A stretch of 19,219 nucleotides of DNA from a virus. The DNA is taken from UHGV virus genome UHGV-0267650; one strand, given 5' to 3'. Made by a program: the position numbers and the translations under genes. Under the pieces are notes generated by a model, which saw only the letters and a list, made by a program, of their open reading frames with translations, was not told the DNA's origin and did no database searches. Shown here one piece after another: positions 1-13,357 of this stretch. Within the stretch, counting starts at the first letter, position 1. Each line of letters begins with the position of its first letter.

Positions 1-119
1 CGTAACACTCCCTCACCGATCCATTTATCAAAGAGTGATTTTTCGAATGCGTCTTTGAAAGCATCGATCATTGTTACCTGCCAATGCCCGTACCGATTTT
101 TAAGTCGGGCATCGGAAAA

Positions 120-386
120 CCGTCACAACTATCACGCATCCTGAAATCACACCTTAACCACATGATTAATTTAAATAAATATTGTGACGGTAAAACCATC
201 ACAAAACGTAACGTAAACAGTCACACCCAATAAATTCAGTAAGTTATAAAACAGAGTTGTGATGGCTTAAGACCGTCACACTGGGATGCTGTTGTGATAG
301 TTTTGTGATGGTTTTCAATACCACTATTTACTTATATTTATCATAGAGATAGTTATTATTTTTAAGTCTTGTGACGTTTGTGACGG
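120..386. repeat. Array of at least ten copies of an 8-bp motif TGTGAYRG (or its complement CYRTCACA) in direct and inverted pairs around an AT-rich core
   Basis: Copies read directly: 120-127 (-), 129-136 (-), 183-190 (+), 196-203 (-), 258-265 (+), 273-280 (-), 293-300 (+), 304-311 (+), 370-376 (+), 379-386 (+). The pair at 258-280 forms a 23-bp near-palindrome TGTGATGG-CTTAAGA-CCGTCACA. Confidence 0.7.
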
Positions 387-1016
387 TTTTCCGATGGTCC
401 CCCTCAATTTTTGAAAAAATCAGAATCGGTCAGAAATCACCCTGATTTGTTGGTAGTTTTGTATATCTATCTGTTAGTGACTTGAACACTGTAGCGTATA
501 CGTTAATGCAGGTATGGCGATGGTTCATGCTGTGCAAAGTATTTCAGTTCCGCATTTCATTGCTATTACGCGCCAGAGCACGTCAGCTAAGGCCTGGACA
601 CTTCCACGCACTGACCTGATCTCGCTGCGACCGTTACGTAAAAAGTCACGTAATCGCTGTTAACCCCGCATGAAACCCGGCACCGGCATTGTTCACCCAC
701 AGCCGGTCATCGCACAAAAACTGAAATCCTTGAAATTTGTTTCACACATTTCAGTTGGCGAACTACTGCCAAAGCCCCAGCGCTGGCGCGGTCTGGCGAT
801 GTGTTTTGTACCACCGGAAAAACTGAAATCATTCTCAACACGAAAACCGCAGGCGGGTGCGGTGTAGCGCCGTTTTCGTCACTTCCGCCGTTATTTCGTC
901 ACGGCAGGCTGTATCAGCGCCTTGCTGCGCTACTGAAGTTAATCAGGTTGGGATGAACGGGTGCAGATAATTACGGCGCTCAGAATGCGTCTGGTGAGGT
1001 CTGGTGGATACGATAA

Positions 1017-1035
1017 AGCCCGCATAATGCGGGCT
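1017..1035 (-). terminator. Rho-independent terminator candidate closing the leftward late operon
   Basis: Perfect 8-bp GC-rich inverted repeat AGCCCGCA / TGCGGGCT with a 3-nt loop, about 10 nt downstream of the stop of the last tail gene (1046). On the - strand transcript the hairpin is followed by UUAUCGUAU, which is only moderately U-rich. Confidence 0.5.
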
Positions 1036-1045
1036 GGTTGAGTAA

Positions 1046-2749
1046 TCAGGCAATAATGTTCTGGTACTTGCTCCGGGTTTCTCCGGCTTTCGTGGCGGTC
1101 TGCGTGAATGATGCCGCATTGGTCGGTGTGCCGACGCTGGGGTGTGAGTGACTGGCGCACTGCCTTGCCAGTTCTGCCAGTAAATCAATGGTATCCAGCA
1201 TCATGGTCAGGGCGTTGATACTCTCGCTGCCAATATGGACAGTTGCCCCCATGACCTGCTGACCGCCAGTGGCCACCGATTTACGTAATGCGGCAATCTT
1301 TTCTGTCAGGGTTCCCCCCACATCAACATCCACGGTGCCGGCTACTTTCGTGGATTGTTTGCCAGTTATATCGGCTTCGTCATTCCCCTCAATGCTGGCC
1401 AGCCTGTTACCTTTCACCGCCTGGCTATAATCACCGGCGCTTACCTGCTGGATGGCTCCGGCCAGCAGTGTGGCGGTTCCCAGTACCGTAGTTTTATCCG
1501 TGGCTTTCACCGTGGTTTCACGGCTGACCAGTTCGCGCTGTTCTGTATCGGCTTTTACAGTTCGCACCATTGATGTTTCGCTGATGGTCTGATCGGTCTG
1601 CCTTACCCAGTCCCCCGCCTGAGTCACTCTCTGGGATACTTCTTCCCGCTGCTGCTGTAATTGCTCACCGGGTTTAACGTCCGGCAGACTGGTGCCATCC
1701 GGTAGCGTCTGCCTGATAAAGGGTTTATCCGGTCTGCCTCCTGTGAATGCGACCTCAACCAGCGTCCCTTCTGGCGGGAACTGAAACATACCTGAATCAT
1801 TCCCGGCCATTGGTACCGGCAGCGGCACCGCTGAATAAACAGGCGTCTGATTGTCCGGGTTTCCGTCTGCGTCAAGCAGCTGAACGTCCACGGCGTAACG
1901 TGGACGGAAGGGATCGGCAAAGTTACCGCTTTTTACCGGCTCTGAATGCGCCACGACTCTGGCCATCTTTGGCAAATGAAGCCCGGATGCCAGTTCCGGG
2001 TAATGGCTTTCAATCTGCCGTTGCGCCGGTGTTTTCTGCAAAGGTTTACCCGTTGCGCGGTTTCTCGGCGTCCATGTGATCGCCATCGTGTCATTCGTCA
2101 GGTGAACTTTAGTCACGCGTTCACCGTTCATCTCCACCCCTGGCCGCATAGTCTGGATCACTGGTAATGTCACAGAGTTACCGCCAGCAGCCCCCTGGCT
2201 GAACTCTGACGGGATTTCTACGGGACGACCGGCAAATAATGACTTTTCTGCGCCGCCGACGTAAAGCGAACCATCAGGCAACTGGTACCAGATGTAATCC
2301 AGGATACTGAACGCCCTGCCCAGATTGTTCAGCAACTGATAACCTGTACCGTTATGGGTAAAATGTGGGATGGGGGTATCGCTGTACTGTGCATCAGGCA
2401 CACTGACCGTGATCCCGCTGTTTTCTTCCAGCCAGCCCGCAATTTCACGCAAAGTCGGGTGTTGAAACGAACATGGCCACATCCTTTCAAACACACCTAC
2501 CAGCTCACGAATGAACAGACGCTGAAAACCTTTTTCCGCGGGCTGCGATCGCTCCACATACCCCGTAAACCAGCGCAAAAGCAGATCGGTATACCCCACA
2601 TCCAGCCGCACCAGTTTTCCGGTGTAATCGGTTGTTGTCTCTGCGGTGATGAAGCCCCGGCCGCAGTTGTTCAGCTCCAGTACCAGGCTGGCGTCCGCCA
2701 TGTGAACTTCATCCGTTGAAAGGTAAAGGCGTTTTACTGGTTTCATCAT
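1046..2749 (-). CDS. Baseplate central spike protein: gpV-like OB-fold and apex in the C-terminal half, with a ~300-aa N-terminal extension of unknown identity (possibly hub-like)
   Basis: 567-aa ORF, last gene of the operon. Residues ~321-345 PPEGTLVEVAFTGGRPDKPFI resemble the OB-fold motif of P2 gpV as I recall it (PSVGEQVLILAVGGELDTAFV). Near the C-terminus ASHSHPSVGTPT resembles the gpV apex motif HTHKHPGDSGGTTGSP. Its start codon overlaps the stop of the upstream ORF. Confidence 0.6.
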   Translation of the reverse strand: MMKPVKRLYLSTDEVHMADASLVLELNNCGRGFITAETTTDYTGKLVRLDVGYTDLLLRWFTGYVERSQPAEKGFQRLFIRELVGVFERMWPCSFQHPTLREIAGWLEENSGITVSVPDAQYSDTPIPHFTHNGTGYQLLNNLGRAFSILDYIWYQLPDGSLYVGGAEKSLFAGRPVEIPSEFSQGAAGGNSVTLPVIQTMRPGVEMNGERVTKVHLTNDTMAITWTPRNRATGKPLQKTPAQRQIESHYPELASGLHLPKMARVVAHSEPVKSGNFADPFRPRYAVDVQLLDADGNPDNQTPVYSAVPLPVPMAGNDSGMFQFPPEGTLVEVAFTGGRPDKPFIRQTLPDGTSLPDVKPGEQLQQQREEVSQRVTQAGDWVRQTDQTISETSMVRTVKADTEQRELVSRETTVKATDKTTVLGTATLLAGAIQQVSAGDYSQAVKGNRLASIEGNDEADITGKQSTKVAGTVDVDVGGTLTEKIAALRKSVATGGQQVMGATVHIGSESINALTMMLDTIDLLAELARQCASHSHPSVGTPTNAASFTQTATKAGETRSKYQNIIA

Positions 2750-3294
2750 TAACCCAAAGCATCATTGACGGGCTTCAGCACCTTGCGTTCAAACCACGTC
2801 AGTTTTTCTTCATCCTCTCCGGCAGACTGGCCACCGGACTGTCCCGCACTACCGGCAGTTTGTTTTTTTGCGGTCGTCTTACCTGTTGCCCTGGCCTCTC
2901 GCTTTTCCTGCACGCTGATATGTTCCGCCAGTGTGAATGTCACCAGCCAGGACATTTTCCCGTCCTGCTGGGGTGCATCCAGCATCCCGCTGAACGTTGC
3001 TTCACGAAAATTAACAGCACGGGCAACTTCATGCGCCACGCGGTACTTCTGACGATTACCACTGGCATCGGTAGCACTGGCCAGCTCAAAAATACGCTTG
3101 AGTATTTCAGGCTGTTTAAAAGGTATTTCCCCGCTGATCCGCAGTTCCTTTCCCTTTGCTCCCTGCTCTGATTTTGTTGTGGCGCTGGTCTGGCCGGACT
3201 GATCTTTATCCTGAAACTGCTGTGAAACAGTCACCCGCATGTTTTTCAGCTGGATGGCCTCGCCATTAAGCGCCAGTGTCGGGATCGAAGTCAT
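2749..3294 (-). CDS. Hypothetical protein within the tail operon (181 aa), function unknown
   Basis: Long - strand ORF packed between neighbours; overlaps the upstream ORF by 29 nt and shares position 2749 with the start of the spike gene. Contains a low-complexity Q/S/T/G/K-rich segment. No family recognised. Confidence 0.45.
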   Translation of the reverse strand: MTSIPTLALNGEAIQLKNMRVTVSQQFQDKDQSGQTSATTKSEQGAKGKELRISGEIPFKQPEILKRIFELASATDASGNRQKYRVAHEVARAVNFREATFSGMLDAPQQDGKMSWLVTFTLAEHISVQEKREARATGKTTAKKQTAGSAGQSGGQSAGEDEEKLTWFERKVLKPVNDALG

Positions 3295-3991
3295 GAATCA
3301 TTCCCTTTATTCCATCAAGATTATCGCCAACCAGCATCATTGCAGCGGTGTACACGGCAGACTGCTGCGGAATGTCCTCCACCAGTTCCAGTAACGTGGT
3401 GCCGGTGTCTCCGCTGGCAGTAAAAACCCACGCTCTGGCACTCTTCCCCTGTAAATCATTCAGGCCGCTGGCCACATCACTGATAAGCTGGTCACGCATC
3501 TGCGTGAACTCGCCCAGCTGTTTTTTCAGCCCTTCGATATCAAACCCGGCACCCGCCGCCTTTTGTGCCTGGCTGATTGCCGCAGCAGATAAAGCTGCCC
3601 TGCTGGTTGGTACAGACAACGGAATGGGCGCAGGTAACGCAGCGGCGGTTTTCGCAGGGATCTGCATCTTTTCAATAGCCAGCGCTGCGGCGGATTGCGC
3701 CAGCCGTTTGACCTGTGTGAATGCCGGGGCGGGGAAAATCCCGACCAGGTTATTCAGGCTGGCCATAAAGTTTTCCTGTGTCTGTCCGGTGACCATCATA
3801 ATCACCACGTCCACATTCCCCCCTGTTCCGGCCAGGCGTTCAGCAAGATAGCGAACAGCATTAACCGGGCTGAGATATGCCCCGTTTGCTGTCTGCTGTC
3901 CCAGCCCATAAATCCACGGATGCGCAGGGACGATCGAACAGTTCAGCGCAGCAACAGAATCCGTGAAGGCCAGACGTGCTTCACGCCACAT
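3266..3991 (-). CDS. Hypothetical protein within the tail operon (~241 aa), function unknown; apparently two domains joined by an Ala/Pro-rich linker
   Basis: The ORF track gives 3266..4027, but the ATG at 3991 is preceded by GGAGG at about -9, so I prefer it as the start. It overlaps the Tfa stop by 11 nt. Ala/Pro-rich linker AAALAIEKMQIPAKTAAALPAPIPLSVPTSRAALSAAAIS. No family recognised. Confidence 0.45.
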   Translation of the reverse strand: MWREARLAFTDSVAALNCSIVPAHPWIYGLGQQTANGAYLSPVNAVRYLAERLAGTGGNVDVVIMMVTGQTQENFMASLNNLVGIFPAPAFTQVKRLAQSAAALAIEKMQIPAKTAAALPAPIPLSVPTSRAALSAAAISQAQKAAGAGFDIEGLKKQLGEFTQMRDQLISDVASGLNDLQGKSARAWVFTASGDTGTTLLELVEDIPQQSAVYTAAMMLVGDNLDGIKGMIHDFDPDTGA

Positions 3992-4568
3992 TTCCAGGCA
4001 CCTCCGGCCACACAATTTCCGGCGCATCTTCCGGTTGAATACGATTCAGTAAAACGCGGAATTTTTTCCATGCAGTAAGCAGTAGCGCTTCTTCTTCGGT
4101 CGCCATGTCAAAATCAACGGCATCCTGCAATGTGGCAATGGCATCATTGGCCTGTTTAAGCAGTCTTTTCTTTTCGGCGTCTGCCTCGCTGACTAATGCA
4201 ATTCGCATGGCCTCCGCATCATCCATCCACGCCTTACCATTCCATTTTTGCCAGGCATTAGCCGGTGCTGACGTGGTTGTCCCTTCCGGGTAAGCGCCTG
4301 GCTCGGTGATCACCAGTTCATTACCGTTTTCTGTATCAAACACCACCTCACCACGGTGATCCTCACGGGAAATCCATCTTTGCTTCTCTGAATCAAAAAT
4401 CGCCACAAATCCCGCTTTGATTGCCGGTGGCTTTATCGTGGTGCAGTTAGCTGGCAGTCCGGTATGCGCAGGAATAAAAGCATCACCCGAACCAATAAAT
4501 TCATTCGTATCGGAACGCAGGTTATAAACAGTAACTGTTTGATCGGTTTCACTCATTTTAAAAGTCAT
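3981..4568 (-). CDS. Tail fiber assembly protein (Tfa / P2 gpG-like chaperone)
   Basis: 195-aa ORF immediately downstream of the tail fiber gene, sharing position 4568 with the fiber stop. Size, position and general sequence character fit the tail-fibre assembly family; called from memory, not from a search. Confidence 0.6.
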   Translation of the reverse strand: MTFKMSETDQTVTVYNLRSDTNEFIGSGDAFIPAHTGLPANCTTIKPPAIKAGFVAIFDSEKQRWISREDHRGEVVFDTENGNELVITEPGAYPEGTTTSAPANAWQKWNGKAWMDDAEAMRIALVSEADAEKKRLLKQANDAIATLQDAVDFDMATEEEALLLTAWKKFRVLLNRIQPEDAPEIVWPEVPGNVA

Positions 4569-6142
4569 TATGCGAGTCTCACTATGTAGTTAAATGCAAT
4601 ATTCTTAACGGTCGTTTCTGCGTTGCCCGACGCGACGACGGTAATGGTGTGACTGTGTGCGCCAATGGCTACGGTATGAGAGTGAGCGCCAATACCTACG
4701 GAGTGATTATGTGCGCCAATGGCTACGGTGTGCGCGTGGTTTCCCGCTGAACTGGTATTTACGGTATATGCAGTACCACTTCCGCCTGCTGATCTGGCTA
4801 TTCCTGAACCATCAGTGCCTCGCGTGGTAAAACCGTGTGCGTGCGCCCCTGTCGTATTTGTCGTTTTTGTACCGTGGTCAAACGTACTCGCCGTTTTAGT
4901 ACCGTAATCAAATGAGGATGTTGATTTCGTTCCCAGATCGGTACTTGATGCACTGGCAGTGTGAGCATGGGATTTATTGCCATCATCTTCACAGGACAAT
5001 ACTGCGCGGCCATCTGGTTTTCCTTTGATTGTCTGGCGGCGCATGTCAGTAATAACACCCGATGGATACGCAGCAGCCAGCAAAGGATATGCCGCTGTAT
5101 TAAAAGACTGCCCTTGCATAATTGCCCATCCAGTAGGTGGGATATCTGTTGGCCAGGGAAGCGGCACACCAACCGGCAGAACATCACTACGACTTAAAAC
5201 GGCCAGTTCACCCAGATCCAGGCTTTTTCTTGCCTTTACCTTGTCGTTAACATCAGCAAGGTTTGCATCCTTACGCAAAAAATCGATGCTGGCCTGCTGT
5301 TCTCCCAGGTTACCTTTTGGCCGTAAATCCGTGATGTTGCCATCCACATCAATGCTGGCCACCGCAAACACGTAATGCTGAACCCCGTTCTGAACGTAAT
5401 CAGCAAGATTTGCTGCCACCGTGATTTTGCTCTGCACATTCCAGACACTAGTCAGTGTCCCTGTCCAGCACACATCCAGCCAGACTTTTACCGGCTTTGT
5501 CGTCACCGTAATATTCTGGTTCGCTGCCAGTGACGCACGAAGTCCAGCCACATAACCCGTGCCTTTCGTGACAAAAAACTGATTGCCGGTTTTGGCTACC
5601 AGATACCCGTCACCAAAAAACGCCGCCGCGCCATAAATATCCATATTTTCCAGGCGCTGGCGCTCATCCATTCCGGCCATACGCGCGGTGAAATCAATCT
5701 GCCAGGTTTCAGCAGGCGTACTAATCCCGGTTTCCGTCTGTGCGCCGTTGTACTCCATCAGAAACGAGCGGGTCAGCACGTTTCCCTGTTGCCCTTCTTT
5801 TGTTTTCAGTTTCTGCTGTGATGGTGCATGGACAATCATTGCCAGCGTACCGCTGGCCTTATTGAGCAGACCGATCCAGTTAAAACTGAAATCACCCACA
5901 TCTGCGCCCAGCACTACGGAATAAACCACCCCATTTTCATTCACCACACCCGTGCGGGTAACAGCCTGCCGGTGAACAATCTGTGCTGTCGGGGGTAACA
6001 CTTCATTACGGTCAACAGGTGTATCCGGGTTTAAATCCGGCACACTGGCAAATACAAATTCGTCCAGTAGTACCGGTTCACCCGTAGCGCCCTGTTGCGC
6101 TTTCCAGTTTTCAAATGCCAGTGTGATGGCTGTCTGTGACAT
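4568..6142 (-). CDS. Tail fiber protein (P2 gpH / Mu gpS-like N-terminus; His-rich repeat C-terminal tip)
   Basis: 524-aa ORF with AAGGAG about 8 nt upstream of the ATG. The N-terminal ~100 aa resemble the conserved N-terminal domain of P2 H / Mu S fibers. The C-terminus carries tandem 11-aa repeats rich in H-x-H ([32 protein letters not shown]), and the gene is followed by a Tfa gene. Confidence 0.75.
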
Positions 6143-6152
6143 AAAAAACTCC

Positions 6153-6758
6153 TTACAAACTCGCGCTGAATGCTGCGCTGCGGGCTTCCGTCCCTGCTAA
6201 CATCGCCGGATAAACCACATATTCCCCCTGATCCCATCCGGCTCTGATGGCCAGTTTTTCCGATGTGATCACCTCAAACTGATAGCGGCGGCATGTTCGT
6301 CCGTACTGGCGGATTATCTGGATCAGCAGTTGCGTGTTGTCTGCAATCTGGCTGTCTGTAACCCGAACCAGAATCACATCCCAGTCGATATCCGGTTGCC
6401 GTTCTAACAGCTCCACATAACCAATTCCCAGCCGTTCAAAGATATTGATAAACCCCTCTACTGAACCGGCATCCCGCGCATTCACGAAGGCAAAAGCCAC
6501 GCGTTTGCGGAACAGGGTCAACGGTTCACCATCAAAGCGGGTAATATCCCGGTCATAAGCCAGCAGGTTCAGTAATGCCGGTGTACACGTCAGCGGATCA
6601 AACTGATTCACTGGCCAGATAACCCAGCCGTAAACCTCAGCCCAGAACCGCCGCGCCGTTTTCAGCAACTTGGCCGGCTCCCCTTTGTTCATCCAGGAAG
6701 GAAGCACCATCCCGGCCAGCTTTTTCAGGAACTCACTCATTTTCAATAACCACCGCAA
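6153..6758 (-). CDS. Baseplate/tail protein, P2 gpI-like (Mu gp48-like)
   Basis: 201-aa ORF directly downstream of the J-like gene, in the position of P2 gene I. The real start may be the internal Met (MSEFLKK) at 6740. Weak resemblance to P2 gpI as recalled. Confidence 0.55.
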
Positions 6759-7917
6759 GCGATTTCAGACGCGGCACACTCAGTTCACTGGTGATGTCGC
6801 CCAGCGAAAAAGACAGTGATTCCGTCTGCGCAAAGGTTTTATGAATTTCCCGCCCCAGTTGAGAAAAGGAAAACCGCGAATATGGCCACGTCTTCCTGAC
6901 GTCATAATCAGCATTCTCACGAAAGGCACAGCGGATCATGTTTTCCACCCCGTCTTTCAGGGTTTTCCTGTCCTCATCGCTGAAATTGGCCAGATTTTTG
7001 ACATAAACCGTGACGGACAGATCATGAAGCGTTTCCGGCATGGGATAGCACTGCATATCATCACCGTGGCCGTGATGCCCCTGCGTGTTGATATAGTCAT
7101 TGACGGCATCCACGAACGGCGAAGAAGCCACCCCGCTGTCCAGCAACAGATACGCGTTGGCGGTACCGGGTCCCCTCGGCGCTTCATGTTCAAAGAAAAT
7201 CCGGTCAATACTCAGCCCTGCAACGCCGGCAATCATTGACCGGTAAACGGCGTCAGTGTGGTAATTCCCCACCAGATTGAACTGATTGCGGCAGCGTTCG
7301 CGCAGCTCATCATCACTTTCTTCATCCGCGCCCGGTACGGTCAGCCAGTTTTCTTCGCTGGTCACGTGGCTGATACCGTCAACGGCAACCGGCAGAATGC
7401 GGTAATATCCCGGCGCAAGGTTATATGCGCCCCCGGTGCCGGTGGCTTTCACCGGCAGTAATGCGCTGGCCATACCGGAAGCGATCACCACATCCTCACT
7501 GGTGGCCAGCTCATACACGCGGCCGTTAATGCGCTCTGTCTGGATAATCGTCCCGGCTTTCACCGTCACCACAGCTTTTGCATCTTCTTTGAAGAAGCGG
7601 ATCACACCCTGTGCAGCGCTCGCCGGTTTTGCCGTGACGTTCACCGCCCACGCCAGCAGACGCAACATGCTCCCGCTGGCTGTGGCCACAAACATATTGG
7701 CCAGCACGGTGAATACCAGAACGTCTTTCAGCCACATCACTGGTGCGGTCACAATGGCGGTGATTAACCGCCAGAACGGTGACATGCGGGACGTATTGGT
7801 GATAATCCCCTCGTCAGCTGCAATCGCATTAAAGCGATCGCGAACCTCAGATTCCGTCACCGGCATCCCGCTGGCTTTCACCACTTCTTCAAAATCAACC
7901 TGGGGCTTTTCCGTCAT
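6733..7917 (-). CDS. Baseplate J-like protein (P2 gpJ / Mu gp47 family)
   Basis: The ORF track gives 6733..7971 (412 aa). I prefer the ATG at 7917, which overlaps the upstream gene's TGA in an ATGA junction, giving ~394 aa. Size and position (after the gp46/W-like gene, before the I-like gene and fiber) match baseplate J. Confidence 0.65.
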   Translation of the reverse strand: MTEKPQVDFEEVVKASGMPVTESEVRDRFNAIAADEGIITNTSRMSPFWRLITAIVTAPVMWLKDVLVFTVLANMFVATASGSMLRLLAWAVNVTAKPASAAQGVIRFFKEDAKAVVTVKAGTIIQTERINGRVYELATSEDVVIASGMASALLPVKATGTGGAYNLAPGYYRILPVAVDGISHVTSEENWLTVPGADEESDDELRERCRNQFNLVGNYHTDAVYRSMIAGVAGLSIDRIFFEHEAPRGPGTANAYLLLDSGVASSPFVDAVNDYINTQGHHGHGDDMQCYPMPETLHDLSVTVYVKNLANFSDEDRKTLKDGVENMIRCAFRENADYDVRKTWPYSRFSFSQLGREIHKTFAQTESLSFSLGDITSELSVPRLKSLAVVIENE

Positions 7918-8243
7918 AAGTCCACCTGATATGAAAGCGTGCCAAAATCGTATGTGCTCGCGGTCACCCACAGCCGTTTCTGGCTTTCTTCACTGATTTC
8001 CACCGTTCCCGGCACAATGCGTTCATCGTTTTCAACCAGTAATTCCAGTTGTGTAAAAATATCTGCCCTCAGTGTCGGACTGCGTTCCGCAATTAATTGC
8101 GTGGCTAATCCGCTCTCAATAATGGCGTGAATAATGTCCTGCCCGATACTTTTTCGGTTATTGCATAATTCAGGCTCATTACCGGCATTTAATGAAAAGT
8201 CACCATTCTCAATAAGCAGGTCAATATAAAGGGCTTCACTCAT
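7914..8243 (-). CDS. Small baseplate protein (Mu gp46 / P2 gpW-like wedge component), tentative
   Basis: 109-aa ORF immediately upstream of the J-like gene, with its start 4 nt inside the tape measure 3' end. Size and position fit gp46/gpW; the sequence-level call is from memory only. Confidence 0.4.
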   Translation of the reverse strand: MSEALYIDLLIENGDFSLNAGNEPELCNNRKSIGQDIIHAIIESGLATQLIAERSPTLRADIFTQLELLVENDERIVPGTVEISEESQKRLWVTASTYDFGTLSYQVDL

Positions 8244-10207
8244 ACACCCAGCTCCTGATATTCCATTAACTTGCCGGGCGACATCATTTCAGTTGGATAA
8301 ATATTCACCGTATCAATTCTGCGGCTGTTATCCGTTACTGATTTAGAATTACTACTAATTGTTTTACTGATACCGCCTTTATCAACGCCTTTTAATTCAC
8401 CGCCAGTAGAAAGGGTATTCGTTGTCAGTGCTGGTTGAGATTCGTTCGCCAGTGAAATATCGACGCCCGGAATTTTATTGAGTTTTCCGACAATCCAGTT
8501 CCACGATTTCAGGAACCCGCCTTTGATGGTCTGCCAGACGTTATCAAACAGGGAGACAATCCCGCTGGCCATGCCGCTTAGCGCCTGTGACGGTGAAAAG
8601 CCGGTCAGCAGCGCAATAAAGCTGTTCCAGCCGTCCGTGATCCATTGCCACGCCGCGGAAAACACGCCGGCAAGCCATTCAACCACACCAGCCACGGCGG
8701 TAAACGCTGCCGTATTCATCACCGCCGCTTTCACATCATCCCAGTGTTTAATCAGCAGATAACACCCGGCAGCCAGCAGAGCAATCGCCCCGATAACCAG
8801 CAGAACCGGCCAGCTCATCAGGTTGATGCCAATACCGGCCATAATCGCCGCCATACGCACGGCCAGCAGCGTACCCCGCAGGAATTTCAGCGTCAGGTTC
8901 CACGCCACAACAGCCTTTGAGGCAATCCAGACCGTGGCCGTGTAAAACTTCGTGACCAGCGTCAGGGCGCTCCAGAGTCCCTTCAGTCCCACCAGGATAA
9001 ATTTTGAGACGCCCATGACAATATTTGTCACCGCGCCCGCTGCCGCCACGCCAAACAGCGCAAGTTGCACGTAACCAATCACCCGCGCAATGTTGGGAAA
9101 CATCTGCATCCAGCGTCCGAACGTCTGCCCCATATCGGCCAGGCGGTTCAGTACCGGGTACAGAACCGGGATCAACGTCAGTCCGATCACCGTCTGAATG
9201 GCTTTAAGGATTTGTACAAAGCGATCCCACGGCCTGACCAGCTTCCCGGCCATCTCCTGTGTACGCTTCAGCCCGTCAGAGCCGCCCAGTTCGGTGATAT
9301 TACGCTGCAGTAACGCCACATTGCCGTACAGATGTTTTATCACCGCTGAACTGTCACCAAATGCCGCATCCAGCTCCGCCTGGGCTTTCAGGTTCCCTTC
9401 CAGGCTTTTGCCGTATTTGCCCTGCAGCTTGATCAGCATTTCAGGCATGGACAGCATTTTGCCGGTGGAGTCCGTAAAGGACAGCCCAAGCTTTTTAGCG
9501 CCCTCTATCGCGCCGGTCATGAAACCTTCGTAAGCGCTGCTGGCCTCTGTTCCCAGCGTACGGTTGAGCTGTCCCAGCACCGCCAGCTGTTCATCCAGCC
9601 CGACGCCGTAGTTGGTACCGACCCCCCGCGCCCCTTCCATCAGGTCTTTAATGGTACCCATTTCGGTACCGAAGACCTTGCGCATATACACCATTTTTCC
9701 CGCCAGTTGCTCAGCGAACTGGACTTTACCCAGCCGCGCCGCATCGTCGGAAAAGTTACCGTACATCTGCCCCATGAACTCCGCCGTGTCGGCGGATGTG
9801 GATTTTAGGGCAAATGCCAGCGTATTAGCGACCTTCGTCACTCTCGGCAGCTCGCTGGCGGTAAGGCCGGCAATGGACGCGTTAATGTTCTCTGTGGATT
9901 TGACGAACTCCACCGCGCTGGCACCGTAGGTCATGCTGAACCGGAGCGCGTCACGCTGTACGGTCTTTAATGCCTGATTATCAATCCCTTTTGCGGCGGC
10001 ATCATTCAGCGCGTCGTACATTTCGATAGCCGGCGATAACGCGCCTTTTATGGCCATTCCCGTGCCAACCAGTCCCAGCACGCCGCCACCAATCTGCGAA
10101 AAGGCCGCTTTTGATTTTTCCGCAAAGCCGGTGACGCTGCCCTGCGCCTGTTTTAACGGGCGCGTCAGCTTATCAATCAGGCTTAATGTAAAATCTAACT
10201 GTTTCAT
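8240..10207 (-). CDS. Tail tape measure protein
   Basis: 655-aa ORF, the longest in the tail module. It is Ala/Gly/Leu-rich with helical N-terminal repeats and hydrophobic segments in the C-terminal half, and sits directly downstream of the chaperone/frameshift pair. Its ATG overlaps the stop of the frameshift extension. Confidence 0.8.
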   Translation of the reverse strand: MKQLDFTLSLIDKLTRPLKQAQGSVTGFAEKSKAAFSQIGGGVLGLVGTGMAIKGALSPAIEMYDALNDAAAKGIDNQALKTVQRDALRFSMTYGASAVEFVKSTENINASIAGLTASELPRVTKVANTLAFALKSTSADTAEFMGQMYGNFSDDAARLGKVQFAEQLAGKMVYMRKVFGTEMGTIKDLMEGARGVGTNYGVGLDEQLAVLGQLNRTLGTEASSAYEGFMTGAIEGAKKLGLSFTDSTGKMLSMPEMLIKLQGKYGKSLEGNLKAQAELDAAFGDSSAVIKHLYGNVALLQRNITELGGSDGLKRTQEMAGKLVRPWDRFVQILKAIQTVIGLTLIPVLYPVLNRLADMGQTFGRWMQMFPNIARVIGYVQLALFGVAAAGAVTNIVMGVSKFILVGLKGLWSALTLVTKFYTATVWIASKAVVAWNLTLKFLRGTLLAVRMAAIMAGIGINLMSWPVLLVIGAIALLAAGCYLLIKHWDDVKAAVMNTAAFTAVAGVVEWLAGVFSAAWQWITDGWNSFIALLTGFSPSQALSGMASGIVSLFDNVWQTIKGGFLKSWNWIVGKLNKIPGVDISLANESQPALTTNTLSTGGELKGVDKGGISKTISSNSKSVTDNSRRIDTVNIYPTEMMSPGKLMEYQELGV

Positions 10208-10652
10208 TCCGTGCCTTTAAATGCAGTGCTGATTCCGTTAGCAACCGCTATTCGCATATTTTCCCAGTGGCGATTATCCAGCCAGATAGCAGCGGAAATA
10301 TCATCCATGGAATCCTGACCGTGTGGTAAATAATGGCGACGCAAAATTAAATACTGTTCGAGTCCGTTCTGTTCAATTGCCCGGACTCGTTTTGTCAGTT
10401 TTTTACTTCAATTTCCAGTTCTGGCGCATAAAGTTCATTCACTTTCCCGGCCAACTGGATCGCTGCGCCCGGACGTTTCAGAATATCATCCAGCGCCTCT
10501 TTACTTTCAGCAGACACAATGCGCACAAGATAATTGTGTGCAGGTGCCACTTTATTATCCATCGCCATTTCGTTGATGAACTTATTATAAGCGGTCTGAT
10601 TCGGTTCAAAGGTGATTTCTTTTTCGCATACAACCAGATTAATTTTTTCCAT
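10204..10652 (-). CDS. Predicted -1 frameshift fusion product of the tail assembly chaperone (E+E'-like, ~146 aa)
   Basis: The -1 frame is open for 61 codons from the slippery site at 10398..10404 (LTKRVRAIEQNGLEQYLILRRHYLPHGQDSMDDISAAIWLDNRHWENMRIAVANGISTAFKGTE). It ends at a TGA that overlaps the tape measure ATG. The 0 frame and +1 frame both hit stops immediately. Confidence 0.55.
10395..10652 (-). CDS. Tail assembly chaperone (P2 gpE-like), zero-frame product
   Basis: 85-aa ORF immediately upstream of the tape measure gene. It ends ...EVKN with the canonical slippery heptamer A_AAA_AAC placed just before its TGA stop. Confidence 0.6.
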   Translation of the reverse strand: MEKINLVVCEKEITFEPNQTAYNKFINEMAMDNKVAPAHNYLVRIVSAESKEALDDILKRPGAAIQLAGKVNELYAPELEIEVKN

Positions 10653-10938
10653 AAATAACGTTCTCTCTTAAATTAATTTCATCAACAAGCGCGTTATGCC
10701 GTGCAGCACACTGCCCGTATAACTCCAGATAAAGTGTCAGTAATTCCGCCGCGTCTTTTCCCTGCGTTCCACTCAGGCGCGGCAGCTGCGTGGCGCATTT
10801 AGTTTTCAGGTTTTCCTGATAACGTACGTTCGGTACTGGTGACGGCGTCGTTGTACATGCGGACAAAGTCATCAGACAGACACTTATTGGTAAATACCGG
10901 CTTAACCACTTCCGTGCGGATTTCACGCGGTGGCGCAT
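10639..10938 (-). CDS. o-spanin (outer-membrane lipoprotein, Rz1/LysC-like)
   Basis: 99-aa ORF that starts inside the i-spanin gene in another frame and extends beyond it. It has a signal peptide with lipobox LSAC followed by a Pro-rich segment (TTTPSPVPNV), typical of o-spanins. Confidence 0.6.
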   Translation of the reverse strand: MRHRVKSARKWLSRYLPISVCLMTLSACTTTPSPVPNVRYQENLKTKCATQLPRLSGTQGKDAAELLTLYLELYGQCAARHNALVDEINLRENVIYGKN

Positions 10939-11131
10939 TTTTCAGTGCCTCCAGTTTGTCTTCCAGCCGGCGACCAGATGAACCGGCAATTTCAGCCAGT
11001 TGTTCCCCGGTCGCGGTGACCGCTTTTGAGACAGTCAGATCAACACTGTCCCGCTGCCAGCCGGCCGTTTTCCAGCCGGCTATAAATGCCAGAGCAAGGG
11101 TGAATAACCAGCCTGACACGACGCGATCCAT
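10799..11131 (-). CDS. i-spanin (inner-membrane, Rz/LysB-like)
   Basis: 110-aa ORF with an N-terminal transmembrane segment (VVSGWLFTLALAFIAGW) followed by a charged helical periplasmic region. Lies directly downstream of the endolysin with a 1-nt overlap. Confidence 0.6.
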   Translation of the reverse strand: MDRVVSGWLFTLALAFIAGWKTAGWQRDSVDLTVSKAVTATGEQLAEIAGSSGRRLEDKLEALKNAPPREIRTEVVKPVFTNKCLSDDFVRMYNDAVTSTERTLSGKPEN

Positions 11132-11472
11132 CAGCGCACCCCGTTATGTTCCAGGCTGAAATGATTACCATCAGGGCGGGATTTGAAGCGACCGCCCCAT
11201 GAACCACCCAGCGATTCCCAGTATTCACCCAGCGGCAGATACGCCGCGCTGTCGGTCTGATACTGGCCATTAATGAACAGATTGAAGTCCACGGCCAGAC
11301 GCTGCGTGTGCAGACTGCTGGAAATGCCGCTGCCTTTTTTCGCGTTCAGTGCAGCCTGTTCCGGGGTACGGTAAGCCTCACCAAACGTCAGCCGGTAGCC
11401 ATGTTCTTCAGCCCACTGGATCAGATTTGCCACCATAACGGTAAAGAGTTGCTGTTTTTCGCTCAGAGTCAT
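11131..11472 (-). CDS. Endolysin, peptidase M15-type (L-alanyl-D-glutamate peptidase-like)
   Basis: 113-aa ORF containing SLHTQRLAVDF and DGNHFSLEH, consistent with the H-x(6)-D...H zinc-binding signature of M15 phage endolysins. Flanked by a holin and spanins. Confidence 0.7.
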   Translation of the reverse strand: MTLSEKQQLFTVMVANLIQWAEEHGYRLTFGEAYRTPEQAALNAKKGSGISSSLHTQRLAVDFNLFINGQYQTDSAAYLPLGEYWESLGGSWGGRFKSRPDGNHFSLEHNGVR

Positions 11473-11765
11473 TTCCCTGTCCCTTTATCAAAAATCCCTG
11501 TAAAACCCCGCTTACGCAGCCAGGCTTCCACCACATTCTGTCCCAGAATACCCAACGCGGAGCCAAATCCGGCTAATGCGAGCGGGTGGATATCCGGGAC
11601 AAAGTACAGCGCCACCCCGGCAATCAGTGACAGTCCGCTGCCCACAATGACACGCCCCGCCACCAGGCGAAGGGTGATTGGTTCATCACTGTTGAGCAAT
11701 TTACCCAGCGCAATCAGCGCCCCCATGACTGCCAGTGCAATGAACCCCTTTTCGTACTCCTGCAT
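11469..11765 (-). CDS. Holin (three predicted transmembrane segments)
   Basis: 98-aa ORF with three hydrophobic stretches and a charged C-terminus (RKRGFTGIFDKGTGK). Sits immediately upstream of the endolysin with a 4-nt overlap. Confidence 0.6.
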   Translation of the reverse strand: MQEYEKGFIALAVMGALIALGKLLNSDEPITLRLVAGRVIVGSGLSLIAGVALYFVPDIHPLALAGFGSALGILGQNVVEAWLRKRGFTGIFDKGTGK

Positions 11766-11777
11766 CCCTGCTGCCTC

Positions 11778-12233
11778 TTATCCAATCAGGTTTTCCGTGG
11801 CTTCCGCTTCCAGATACGGCACACCGTTGATGTTGACGAACTTCGGACTTGTCACGAAGTATTTGATTTTATGCGTGGACACACTGCCACCCTTCGGATC
11901 ACCATCCAGAACGCTGTTGAGCTGCAGCTTGTTACCAAAGGTTTCCACCTTCATTTCCTCGCTGCCGGCTTTGGCGTAAAAAAGGAAGTCAACCGGAGGA
12001 ATGCCACGCCATGACCCCGCTGAACGGGCTTTGGCTGTCAGAACCTGCAGCACTTTTGAGCTGACTTCAATTTCACCCTCAGCGGCAACATCTCCGTCCA
12101 CATACCCGTCAGGGACACCGCGCGTCTGTGCCGCCGCGCTGTTATCGGTGATATCCAGCGAAATTTTTTCAATGTGGATCAGGTCACCGTCCAGATAGAT
12201 GTCAAAGGACATCCCTGAAATACGTTTGGTCAT
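11778..12233 (-). CDS. Contractile tail tube protein (P2 gpFII-like in size and position)
   Basis: 151-aa ORF directly after the sheath-sized gene, joined to it by an ATGA overlap. Size is typical of tube proteins. Confidence 0.5.
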   Translation of the reverse strand: MTKRISGMSFDIYLDGDLIHIEKISLDITDNSAAAQTRGVPDGYVDGDVAAEGEIEVSSKVLQVLTAKARSAGSWRGIPPVDFLFYAKAGSEEMKVETFGNKLQLNSVLDGDPKGGSVSTHKIKYFVTSPKFVNINGVPYLEAEATENLIG

Positions 12234-13357
12234 GCGCTGGCCTCCAGACTTGCATCCAGTAACAGACTGATGGTGATCTGCAGCGGTACTTCATACGTAC
12301 GCACCACAATGTAAATATCCACCGCCTTTTTGTTCTTCCAGACAATGGTCACGTCACCGTCCTGTGGAGGTTTCACCTCGCCCGGAAATGACACGCCGTT
12401 AATGCTGGCCGCAGTGGACATTTCCCGCAGCGGACGGGCAAACAGCGTCTGGTGTGCGGCAATACTGCCCGGTGTACTGTTAAGTGAGCGATCGGCAATC
12501 TTACCGATGGCCAGCAGACGGACGCGGCGTGCTGCCTTATCCACAATACGCAGCGTCTCAATGGACTGGTAATCGCCGCCCTCAACGTCCAGCGTGCGCC
12601 CGTCAGCCCAGTAAAAACCGTCATAGTCCGGATACCACATCGGCACGCTGTAGCGCTGTGCCTCCAGCGCCTGAAGGGTCGCCAGTTCCAGCGTTTCGCC
12701 GGCACCGTCTTTTGGCAGTTCATCGCTTCCCAGACTCAGCAACGCGCCTGTTTTCACCCGCGCCGGACTGTCGGCAATAGTGACAGCACGATTGCAGAGA
12801 CGACCAGCCAGCACGCCCGGTTCATTCCCCCAGAGACGGGGTACCAGCTGTACCGCTTTTTCCGCGATACCTTCCTGAAGGGTGGACAGACGCACCAGAT
12901 AATCCGCCTGGGCTTCATCCTGCTGCATCCCCTGAACCGCCAGAATGAACCACACCCAGCGCCCGTATTTAGCAATCAGTTCAGATCGCAGCGTTGCCGC
13001 CTGGTTAATCTGCGCTTTCGCGGCCACATCATCAGACAGCACCACACCCTCCACCGAACAGGAAACCTGTGCGGCCTTAACGGCATCCACCCATGCCCCC
13101 GGCTCACTGTCTGCGGCCAGCACATGAACAAATCCCCACCAGTTCTGGCCGGCGTTCGCCAGTGCGGCCAGCACATCACTTTTTAACGGGCTGTCACCCT
13201 CGCCCAGCAGCGCATCAAAATCACTCTGTGCGTTAACTGCCAGCGTCTTACCTACATTTTTGGTTCCCGTGCCGATAAACAGCAGCGTGCGCTCCACTTC
13301 CGTGGTTTCACCCAGCAGCTGATTTACCTGGTTTACGGTCACAATTGGCCAGGTCAT
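12230..13357 (-). CDS. Contractile tail sheath protein (P2 gpFI-like in size and position)
   Basis: 375-aa ORF preceded by GGGGGAG, followed by the tube-sized gene. Called from size and gene order, not from a recognised motif. Confidence 0.5.
   Translation of the reverse strand: MTWPIVTVNQVNQLLGETTEVERTLLFIGTGTKNVGKTLAVNAQSDFDALLGEGDSPLKSDVLAALANAGQNWWGFVHVLAADSEPGAWVDAVKAAQVSCSVEGVVLSDDVAAKAQINQAATLRSELIAKYGRWVWFILAVQGMQQDEAQADYLVRLSTLQEGIAEKAVQLVPRLWGNEPGVLAGRLCNRAVTIADSPARVKTGALLSLGSDELPKDGAGETLELATLQALEAQRYSVPMWYPDYDGFYWADGRTLDVEGGDYQSIETLRIVDKAARRVRLLAIGKIADRSLNSTPGSIAAHQTLFARPLREMSTAASINGVSFPGEVKPPQDGDVTIVWKNKKAVDIYIVVRTYEVPLQITISLLLDASLEASA

What the first reader, a model, noticed from the sequence alone, without database searches (positions are those of the whole stretch)
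1046..2749. Central spike gene with a ~300-aa N-terminal extension, placed at the far end of the tail operon
The C-terminal half carries two hallmarks of P2 gpV-type spikes: the OB-fold motif PPEGTLVEVAFTGGRPDKPFI and a near-C-terminal SHSHP apex motif (the histidines bind metal at the spike tip in gpV-family proteins). The protein is 567 aa, about 2.7 times the size of gpV, with about 300 aa of unrecognised sequence preceding the OB domain. No separate spike or hub gene sits in the expected place between tape measure and the gp46/W-like gene. That suggests a natural hub-spike fusion (VgrG-like domain order) or a spike carrying an enzymatic or adaptor N-domain. The relocation to after the fiber/Tfa genes is unlike P2 or Mu order.
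Basis: partly seen in the sequence, partly recalled or inferred. Interest (0 to 1): 0.7.

Follow-up and report, generated by a model that had tools for sequence, protein, structure and literature searches.

The report
Fused baseplate hub and spike protein
The last gene of this HP1-like prophage tail operon joins the baseplate hub and the membrane-piercing spike into one VgrG-like protein, a conserved but poorly annotated arrangement of a well-known kind of machine.

Summary
The window is the late region of an HP1/ESSI-2-like prophage (Peduoviridae). The gene is the orthologue of HP1 orf35, K139 orf39 and phiO18P gp46.

The C-terminal half has an OB fold, a T4 gp5-like beta-helix and a conserved HxH near the end. 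By sequence it is closer to VgrG and gp5 than to P2 gpV.

The "relocation" is explained: the gene sits where P2 keeps its hub gene D, last before the operon terminator.

In related phages (PV94, ACA2, phi3) the hub and spike are two adjacent, overlapping genes. That split form is the more diverse one.

This is a new, poorly annotated member of a known kind. Interest is modest.

The parts
1046..2749 (-). Whole hub-spike gene, 567 aa, orthologue of HP1 orf35
   Evidence: ORF and translation. PHROG 2258 'baseplate protein' matches full length at E 1e-275. It is 40-42% identical to HP1 and HP2 orf35 and 34% to K139 orf39. More than 1200 homologues were found.
2066..2749 (-). Compact baseplate hub domain, residues 1-228 (gp27 / Mu gp44 / P2 gpD fold)
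2021..2065 (-). Linker, residues 229-243 (TPRNRATGKPLQKTPAQ region); has no counterpart in homologues where hub and spike are separate genes
   Evidence: Alignments with the split genes of PV94, ACA2 and phi3.
1700..2020 (-). Spike N-terminal helix (about 244-254) and OB-fold domain (about 255-350).
   Evidence: Pfam Phage_base_V at 24.2 bits, cut-off 23.8. Family profile against P. aeruginosa VgrG1 (4mtk) gives E 1.6e-8. Five strands are predicted at 261-349 in a low-confidence model. The segment aligns to the N-terminus of stand-alone spikes.
1220..1699 (-). Connector and beta-helix, residues 351-510. The T4 gp5-like stretch is residues 413-508 (1226-1513).
   Evidence: phmmer against PDB T4 gp5 gives E 2e-10 with residues 413-508 aligned to gp5 481-576. 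Pfam Gp5_C at 27.6 bits, cut-off 20.4. The length varies between homologues; HP1 is about 30 aa shorter here.
1049..1219 (-). C-terminal tip module, residues 511-567: predicted helix, then the HxH loop (H534 and H536, at 1142-1150), then a second helix
   Evidence: H534 and H536 are invariant in alignment A4. HxH lies within the last 60 residues in 194 of 195 homologues and in most intact fused representatives. Helices are predicted at 513-533 and 545-566 with pLDDT 63-80. There is no Pfam Apex match.
1017..1035 (-). Terminator-like hairpin 10 nt after the stop codon; marks the end of the tail operon
   Evidence: RNA fold -14.2 kcal/mol, z -3.9. K139 has an annotated terminator at the same place after orf39.
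2749..3294 (-). Upstream gene, 181 aa, HP1 orf34 family. Its stop overlaps the hub-spike start by 1 nt (TAATG).
   Evidence: Pfam HP1_ORF34 'baseplate complex protein' at E 4e-54. Junction sequence. The ACA2 homologue is noted as 'putative P2 gpU-like' by its depositors. My own comparison with P2 gpU did not confirm this.

Best explanation
The gene encodes the central puncturing device of an HP1-type contractile tail as a single polypeptide.

Parts of the protein:
- Residues 1-228 form a compact baseplate hub of the gp27 / Mu gp44 / P2 gpD fold.
- A linker of about 15 residues leads into a spike.
- The spike has an N-terminal helix, an OB fold, a gp5-like beta-helix and a C-terminal tip carrying a conserved HxH.

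Inferred mechanism, by analogy with Mu, T4 and VgrG:
- Three copies form a trimer.
- The hub ring nucleates the baseplate wedges (the J-, I- and W-like proteins encoded upstream) and caps the tube and tape measure.
- The OB domains plug the hub, and the three chains wind into the beta-helix needle.
- The three HxH pairs hold a metal ion at the tip.
- On sheath contraction the tube drives this unit through the outer membrane. Because hub and spike are covalently joined, they must leave the tube end together.

The fold assignments and domain boundaries are shown here. Trimerisation, metal binding and the infection steps are inferred.

The gene order follows the order T-U-D-V-W-J-I-H-G (the Mu order, recalled rather than fetched; P2's two tail operons read as a circle). 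The hub and spike genes are neighbours in that order. Here they are fused, and the block lies after the fibre genes.
For: - Spike: Phage_base_V and Gp5_C score above their Pfam cut-offs on the C-terminal half. T4 gp5 matches at E 2e-10 and VgrG1 at E 1.6e-8 with the family profile.
- Domain boundary: in PV94, ACA2 and phi3 the two halves are separate adjacent genes that break exactly after the conserved Trp (W226 here). The ACA2 depositors annotated them 'gpD-like' and 'cell puncturing device'.
- Context: the tail sheath, tube, tape measure, W-, J- and I-like proteins, fibre and Tfa are all encoded upstream. No other hub or spike candidate is in the window or in the rest of the related E. coli prophage as far as the stretch fetched reaches (about 6 kb beyond the window's far end).
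- Synteny is conserved in HP1, K139 and phiO18P.
- HxH is conserved. A C-terminal HxH in spikes binds Fe and marks spikes that need no separate tip protein (PMC12407873, citing Browning et al. 2012).
Against: - No sequence method links the N-domain to Phage_GPD, gp27 or any solved hub: no Pfam hit at E up to 10, hhalign against P2 gpD at probability 0.2, and no PDB profile match. The hub assignment therefore rests on a predicted structure.
- The hub is about 100 residues shorter than Mu gp44 or P2 gpD. I could not determine which sub-domain is missing, or whether the trimer alone still makes a full pseudo-hexameric ring.
- The whole-protein model failed (pLDDT 39), so the hub-OB packing and the tip architecture are unmodelled.
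- The tip does not match the gpV Apex family.
- There are no experimental data for any member of the family.
Confidence: 0.85

Rival explanations
1. A gpV-like spike carrying an N-terminal enzymatic or adaptor domain (for example a lysin or receptor-binding module), with the hub encoded by another gene.
For: Many phage spikes and hubs do carry enzymes, such as the T4 gp5 lysozyme and the A-1(L) hub hydrolases (PMC10966104). The N-domain has no Pfam annotation. The neighbouring 253-aa and 181-aa proteins are uncharacterised.
Against: All top structural matches of the N-domain are hubs and none is an enzyme. No other gene in the window or in the related prophage is a hub candidate. The domain exists as a stand-alone gene directly upstream of the spike gene in relatives, as Mu gp44 does upstream of gp45 (Mu order recalled, not fetched).
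Confidence: 0.04
2. The fusion is an artefact: a frameshift, an assembly error or a decaying prophage gene that joins two normally separate genes.
For: Hub and spike are separate, overlapping genes in PV94, ACA2 and phi3, and a small indel could in principle merge them.
Against: Full-length fused proteins of 530-612 aa are conserved from 28% to 96% identity in Escherichia, Salmonella, Enterobacter, Aeromonas, Haemophilus, Pasteurella and Vibrio phages and prophages, including viable sequenced phages HP1, HP2, K139 and phiO18P. The fused forms carry a dedicated linker of about 15 residues that the split forms lack.
Confidence: 0.02
3. The hub assignment is right, but the C-terminal HxH module is not a metal-loaded piercing tip. 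It could instead be a helical docking or trimerisation element, or a site for a separate tip protein.
For: There is no match to the gpV Apex or Phage_spike families. The HxH lies between two predicted helices and 31 residues from the end, unlike gpV, where HTHKH lies at 194-198 of 211. Relatives such as PV94 replace this module with a Cys/His-containing one.
Against: Both histidines are invariant across the module-bearing family. No PAAR-like gene is in the operon, which ends at a terminator straight after this gene. The literature rule is that spikes with a C-terminal HxH lack a tip protein (PMC12407873).
Confidence: 0.2

Closest known systems
HP1 orf35 family (HP1/HP2 orf35, K139 orf39, Kappa kp45, phiO18P gp46, ESSI-2; PHROG 2258 'baseplate protein')
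   Same: It is orthologous over the full length at 34-96% identity. It holds the same position as the last gene of the tail operon, after the orf33- and orf34-like genes.
   Different: Nothing differs in architecture. The beta-helix here is about 30 aa longer than in HP1. The family has no experimental characterisation that I could find. NCBI's pipeline calls it 'hypothetical protein'.
T6SS VgrG and eCIS Afp8/Pvc8 (hub-spike fusions)
   Different: The TIGR VgrG models score 16 bits against cut-offs of 122-186, so it is not a VgrG family member by sequence. The hub is about 130 aa shorter: the OB fold starts near residue 255 here against about 365-380 in VgrG. It carries an HxH tip rather than a blunt end capped by PAAR. 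It lies in a prophage tail operon, not a T6SS or eCIS locus.
Mu gp44 + gp45 and P2 gpD + gpV (separate hub and spike)
   Different: The two are fused into one chain. There is no Phage_GPD, Phage_spike or Apex match. The hub has about 228 aa against 379-387. The needle is a gp5-type beta-helix rather than the short gpV one. In P2, gene V lies in another operon.
Split relatives: PV94 gp46/gp47, ACA2 gp48/gp49, phi3 unannotated ORF + ALY08278
   Same: They are homologous in both halves at 26-39% identity and have the same neighbours.
   Different: They are two genes. The spike ATG overlaps the conserved Trp codon at the end of the hub gene. Stand-alone hubs account for 88 of 109 representatives of at least 215 aa, against 17 fused.

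Membership tests
Baseplate hub fold (T4 gp27 / Mu gp44 / P2 gpD / XkdQ) | Three-dimensional fold of the hub core superposes on solved hubs | tested here: met
Baseplate hub fold (T4 gp27 / Mu gp44 / P2 gpD / XkdQ) | Sequence membership in Pfam Phage_GPD (PF05954) | tested here: not met
   No Pfam hit at E up to 10 for residues 1-232, whereas P2 gpD scores 95 bits. hhalign against P2 gpD gives probability 0.2.
Baseplate hub fold (T4 gp27 / Mu gp44 / P2 gpD / XkdQ) | Trimer forming a pseudo-hexameric ring under the tube, with a complete domain set | not testable with these tools
   Only monomer prediction was available. The domain is about 100 aa shorter than Mu gp44, and the missing sub-domain was not identified.
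Central spike (gp5 / gpV / VgrG C-terminal part) | OB-fold domain of the Phage_base_V family | tested here: met
   24.2 bits against a cut-off of 23.8 on the C-terminal half, and 22.9 on the whole protein. The family profile matches VgrG1 at E 1.6e-8 across the OB end. The score is marginal by Pfam alone.
Central spike (gp5 / gpV / VgrG C-terminal part) | Triple-stranded beta-helix repeats | tested here: met
   Gp5_C at 27.6 bits, cut-off 20.4. T4 gp5 residues 481-576 match at E 2e-10.
P2 gpV-type spike specifically | Phage_spike trimer domain (PF18715) and Apex motif (PF18946) | tested here: not met
   Neither family is reported for the C-terminal half at E up to 10, while P2 gpV matches both. 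hhalign of the family against gpV gives probability 0.25.
Iron-loaded apex (HxH) spikes | Conserved HxH close to the C-terminus | tested here: met
   H534 and H536 are invariant in A4. HxH is in the last 60 residues of 194 of 195 homologues.
Iron-loaded apex (HxH) spikes | Buried metal ion coordinated by six histidines on the three-fold axis | not testable with these tools
   This needs a trimer structure or metal analysis. The whole-protein monomer model was poor.
T6SS VgrG (TIGR01646 / TIGR03361) | Score above the NCBIfam cut-offs, and a T6SS gene neighbourhood | tested here: not met
   16 bits against cut-offs of 122 and 186. The neighbours are phage tail, lysis and head genes.

The most novel reading that the evidence does not exclude
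The HP1-type puncturing device is a distinct minimal design. It has a hub of only about 228 aa, covalently tethered to a spike whose tip is a helix-HxH-helix module with no match among solved structures in sequence searches (fold not compared; no usable model). Close relatives carry the same two modules as separate genes. The family would therefore be a natural test of whether hub and spike must separate during infection, and a phage-side model for how VgrG-type fusions arise.
Probability: 0.3. Interest if true: 0.45.

Novelty: new member of a known kind. Interest (0 to 1): 0.3.

Why it matters
It assigns a specific role, hub plus spike, to a gene that NCBI's pipeline labels 'hypothetical protein' and phage resources label only 'baseplate protein'. 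That gene occurs in more than a thousand enterobacterial, Aeromonas, Vibrio and Pasteurellaceae prophage proteins.

It accounts for the apparently missing hub and spike in HP1-type tail modules. It also shows that P2-like phages contain VgrG-style fusions alongside split versions.

The practical value is better annotation, plus a compact and tractable system for studying hub-spike coupling. It does not reveal a new kind of machine.

Tried and rejected
- Whole-protein AF2 with a 22-sequence alignment failed (pLDDT 39).
- Sequence routes from the N-domain to known hubs all failed:
  - Pfam at E up to 10.
  - hhalign of a 9-sequence profile against P2 gpD, probability 0.2.
  - PDB profile searches with 9 and 105 sequences. 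Only beta-propeller 'DG.IYVGS' noise appeared.
- I could not confirm that the upstream orf34-like protein is gpU-like. BLASTP, hhalign and the PDB profile search were all negative. That label rests on the ACA2 depositors' note and is not used as evidence.
- The 253-aa orf33-like protein has no PDB or Pfam match.
- Programmed frameshifting in the split homologues was considered. The overlaps are ordinary ATG/stop overlaps with no slippery heptamer visible, so I dropped the idea.
- No tRNA or att-type feature was found downstream.
- Two papers could not be retrieved: the P2 cryo-EM preprint and Buttner et al. 2016.

Full report
**What the window is.** All long ORFs lie on the minus strand. They form a P2-like head module: scaffold, P2-family capsid, small terminase, and head and tail completion proteins. 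A tail module follows, in this order:
- sheath (12230-13357) and tube (11778-12233)
- holin, M15 endolysin and spanins
- chaperone, then tape measure (8240-10207)
- DUF2590/W-like (7914-8243), baseplate J (6733-7971) and I-like (6153-6758)
- tail fibre (4568-6142) and Tfa (3981-4568)
- a 253-aa protein, a 181-aa HP1_ORF34-family protein, and the 567-aa target

The DNA is 94% identical over 19 kb to prophages in 12 complete E. coli genomes. There the target is annotated 'hypothetical protein'. By protein it is 96% identical to Escherichia phages of the ESSI2 group, 79% to Cronobacter phage ESSI-2, 40-42% to Haemophilus phages HP1 and HP2 (orf35), and 34-39% to K139 orf39, Kappa kp45, phiO18P gp46 and F108. 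It always lies last, after the orf33- and orf34-like genes. This is therefore an HP1-type (Peduoviridae) tail module.

**Checking the observation.** The gene starts one base inside the stop codon of the upstream gene (TAATG). A strong hairpin follows it 10 nt after its stop, at 1017-1035 (-14.2 kcal/mol, z -3.9). It is thus the last gene of the operon. No gene lies between the tape measure and the W-like gene.

**The C-terminal half is a spike, but closer to gp5 and VgrG than to gpV.**
- On the isolated C-terminal half, Pfam Phage_base_V (OB fold) scores 24.2 bits (cut-off 23.8) and Gp5_C scores 27.6 bits (cut-off 20.4).
- phmmer against the PDB aligns residues 413-508 to the beta-helix of T4 gp5 (481-576) at E 2e-10.
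- A profile of eight diverse homologues finds P. aeruginosa VgrG1 at E 1.6e-8 across the end of the OB fold and the start of the helix. It then finds VgrS, T4 gp5 and, weakly, Afp8 and Pvc8.
- P2 gpV matches Phage_spike and Apex, which this protein does not.

The 'gpV-type' label is too narrow.

**The tip.**
- H534 and H536 are invariant in the 22-sequence alignment.
- They are conserved in HP1 (THTH), K139 (THTH), phi3 (GHVH) and ACA2 (NHGH).
- HxH lies in the last 60 residues of 194 of 195 homologues and of most intact fused representatives.
- According to PMC12407873, citing Browning et al. 2012, spikes with a C-terminal HxH have an apex that buries an Fe ion held by three HxH motifs, and they need no separate tip protein. 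No PAAR-like gene is present here.
- The module differs from gpV. The HxH lies between two predicted helices (513-533 and 545-566, pLDDT 63-80 in an otherwise poor model), 31 residues from the end.

Metal binding is inferred, not shown.

**The N-terminal part.** Alignment with relatives in which the gene is split fixes the boundary.
- The split relatives are Vibrio phage PV94 gp46/gp47, Pseudoalteromonas phage ACA2 gp48/gp49, and Pseudomonas phage phi3 (an unannotated 232-aa ORF plus ALY08278).
- The upstream protein ends just after the conserved Trp, which is W226 here. The downstream spike begins a few residues before the conserved 'KRxI..FPEL..HLP' segment, residues 244-260 here.
- The fused proteins carry an extra linker of about 15 residues rich in Pro, Lys and Thr.

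The 'extension' is thus a domain of about 228 aa plus a linker, not 300 aa.

Sequence methods see nothing in this domain: no Pfam hit at E up to 10, nothing in the PDB, and hhalign against P2 gpD at probability 0.2.

In each case 210-220 of 232 residues align at 2.5-3.2 A. Foldseek on the PDB (E down to 5e-12) and on BFVD ('Phage protein D', '43 kDa tail protein', 'Late control GPD') agrees. No enzyme fold appears.

The domain is about 100 residues shorter than Mu gp44 or P2 gpD. I could not identify the missing sub-domain without coordinates.

**Fusion versus split.**
- A full HMMER scan of 1.84 billion representatives with residues 1-232 finds 248 clusters.
- Among the 109 listed hits of at least 215 aa, 88 are stand-alone (215-262 aa) and 17 are fused (at least 450 aa).
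- In a neighbour-joining tree the fused forms group together, apart from a few 'stand-alone' hits, at least two of them fragmentary. Parsimony on the midpoint-rooted tree puts the stand-alone state at the root. This result is indicative only.
- In the three split phages, the spike ATG overlaps the conserved Trp codon of the hub gene (A-TGG). This is an ordinary coupling overlap.

**Gene order.** In P2 the F operon runs FI, FII, E, E', T, U, D and ends next to ogr and attP. V, W, J, I, H and G form a separate operon. The hub gene is therefore the last tail gene in P2 too. I did not fetch the Mu genome. From memory its order is tape measure gp42, then gp43 through gp50. PMC11915804 assigns their roles: gp43 is the tube initiator, gp44 the hub, gp45 the spike, gp46-48 the wedge and gp49-50 the fibre. 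The HP1-type order T, W, J, I, H, G, orf33, orf34, hub::spike keeps hub and spike adjacent and places that block last. The ACA2 depositors labelled the orf34 homologue gpU-like (PMC10612066 describes their HHpred-based annotation). My own tests did not confirm that.

**Mechanism.** Shown here:
- a hub-fold domain, a linker, an OB fold, a gp5-like helix and a conserved HxH in one conserved ORF
- its place at the end of a complete tail operon that has no other hub or spike

Inferred from Mu, T4, P2 and VgrG structures:
- a trimer whose hub ring seeds the wedges and caps the tube and tape measure
- OB domains that plug the ring, and a needle stiffened by a metal at the tip
- expulsion of the whole unit when the sheath contracts

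**Novelty.** Hub-spike fusions are the rule in T6SS (VgrG) and eCIS (Afp8, Pvc8), and they occur in some phages. The split relatives were already annotated 'gpD-like' and 'cell puncturing device' by the ACA2 depositors. One database name for a close homologue reads 'valine-glycine repeat…'. I found no paper describing HP1 orf35-type proteins as hub-spike fusions, and standard annotation misses it. This is a new, under-annotated member of a known kind. The compact hub and the helical HxH tip are the only mildly unusual features.

Noticed in passing
L003:9654-10418 (PV94 gp47); also P0299 and P0301: Some relatives replace the helix-HxH-helix tip with a different short C-terminal module, '...NGG.G..C.....CPFTG..H....TVFAG'. 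It is rich in Cys and His and may be an alternative metal-binding tip.
   Followed up: partly
L006:3004-3702 (Pseudomonas phage phi3, KT887559): A 232-aa stand-alone hub ORF is not annotated in the GenBank record. It overlaps the start of the annotated 'Gp5 domain-containing' spike gene by 16 nt.
   Followed up: yes
L003:9654, L004:9603, L006:3687: In all three split phages the spike start codon is formed by the base before the conserved hub Trp codon plus its first two bases (A-TGG). The spike ORF is in the -1 frame. No slippery site was seen, so this looks like translational coupling.
   Followed up: partly
window 3266-4027 (-): A 253-aa Ala-rich protein of the HP1 orf33 / PHROG 1677 family lies between Tfa and the orf34-like gene. 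It has no Pfam or PDB match, and PV94 has no gene in the corresponding position. It may supply something the compact hub lacks, but this is untested.
   Followed up: partly
window 2749-3294 (-): Homologues of this HP1_ORF34-family protein carry misleading names in phage records: 'adenine glycosylase' in PV94 and 'nucleoid DNA-binding protein' in phi3. The depositors' 'gpU-like' note for ACA2 could not be reproduced with hhalign against P2 gpU.
   Followed up: partly
window 1-1045: About 1 kb downstream of the operon terminator has lower G+C (0.45), no convincing ORF and no tRNA. Positions 96-1045 are conserved in the E. coli prophages, where the element abuts an acyltransferase gene next to raiA. 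The first 95 bases differ. This is possibly the prophage end or att region.
   Followed up: partly
window 10207-11765 (-): The lysis cassette (holin, M15 peptidase, two spanin ORFs) sits between the tube gene and the tail chaperone and tape-measure genes, as in HP1. This differs from P2, where lysis genes precede the tail completion genes.
   Followed up: no
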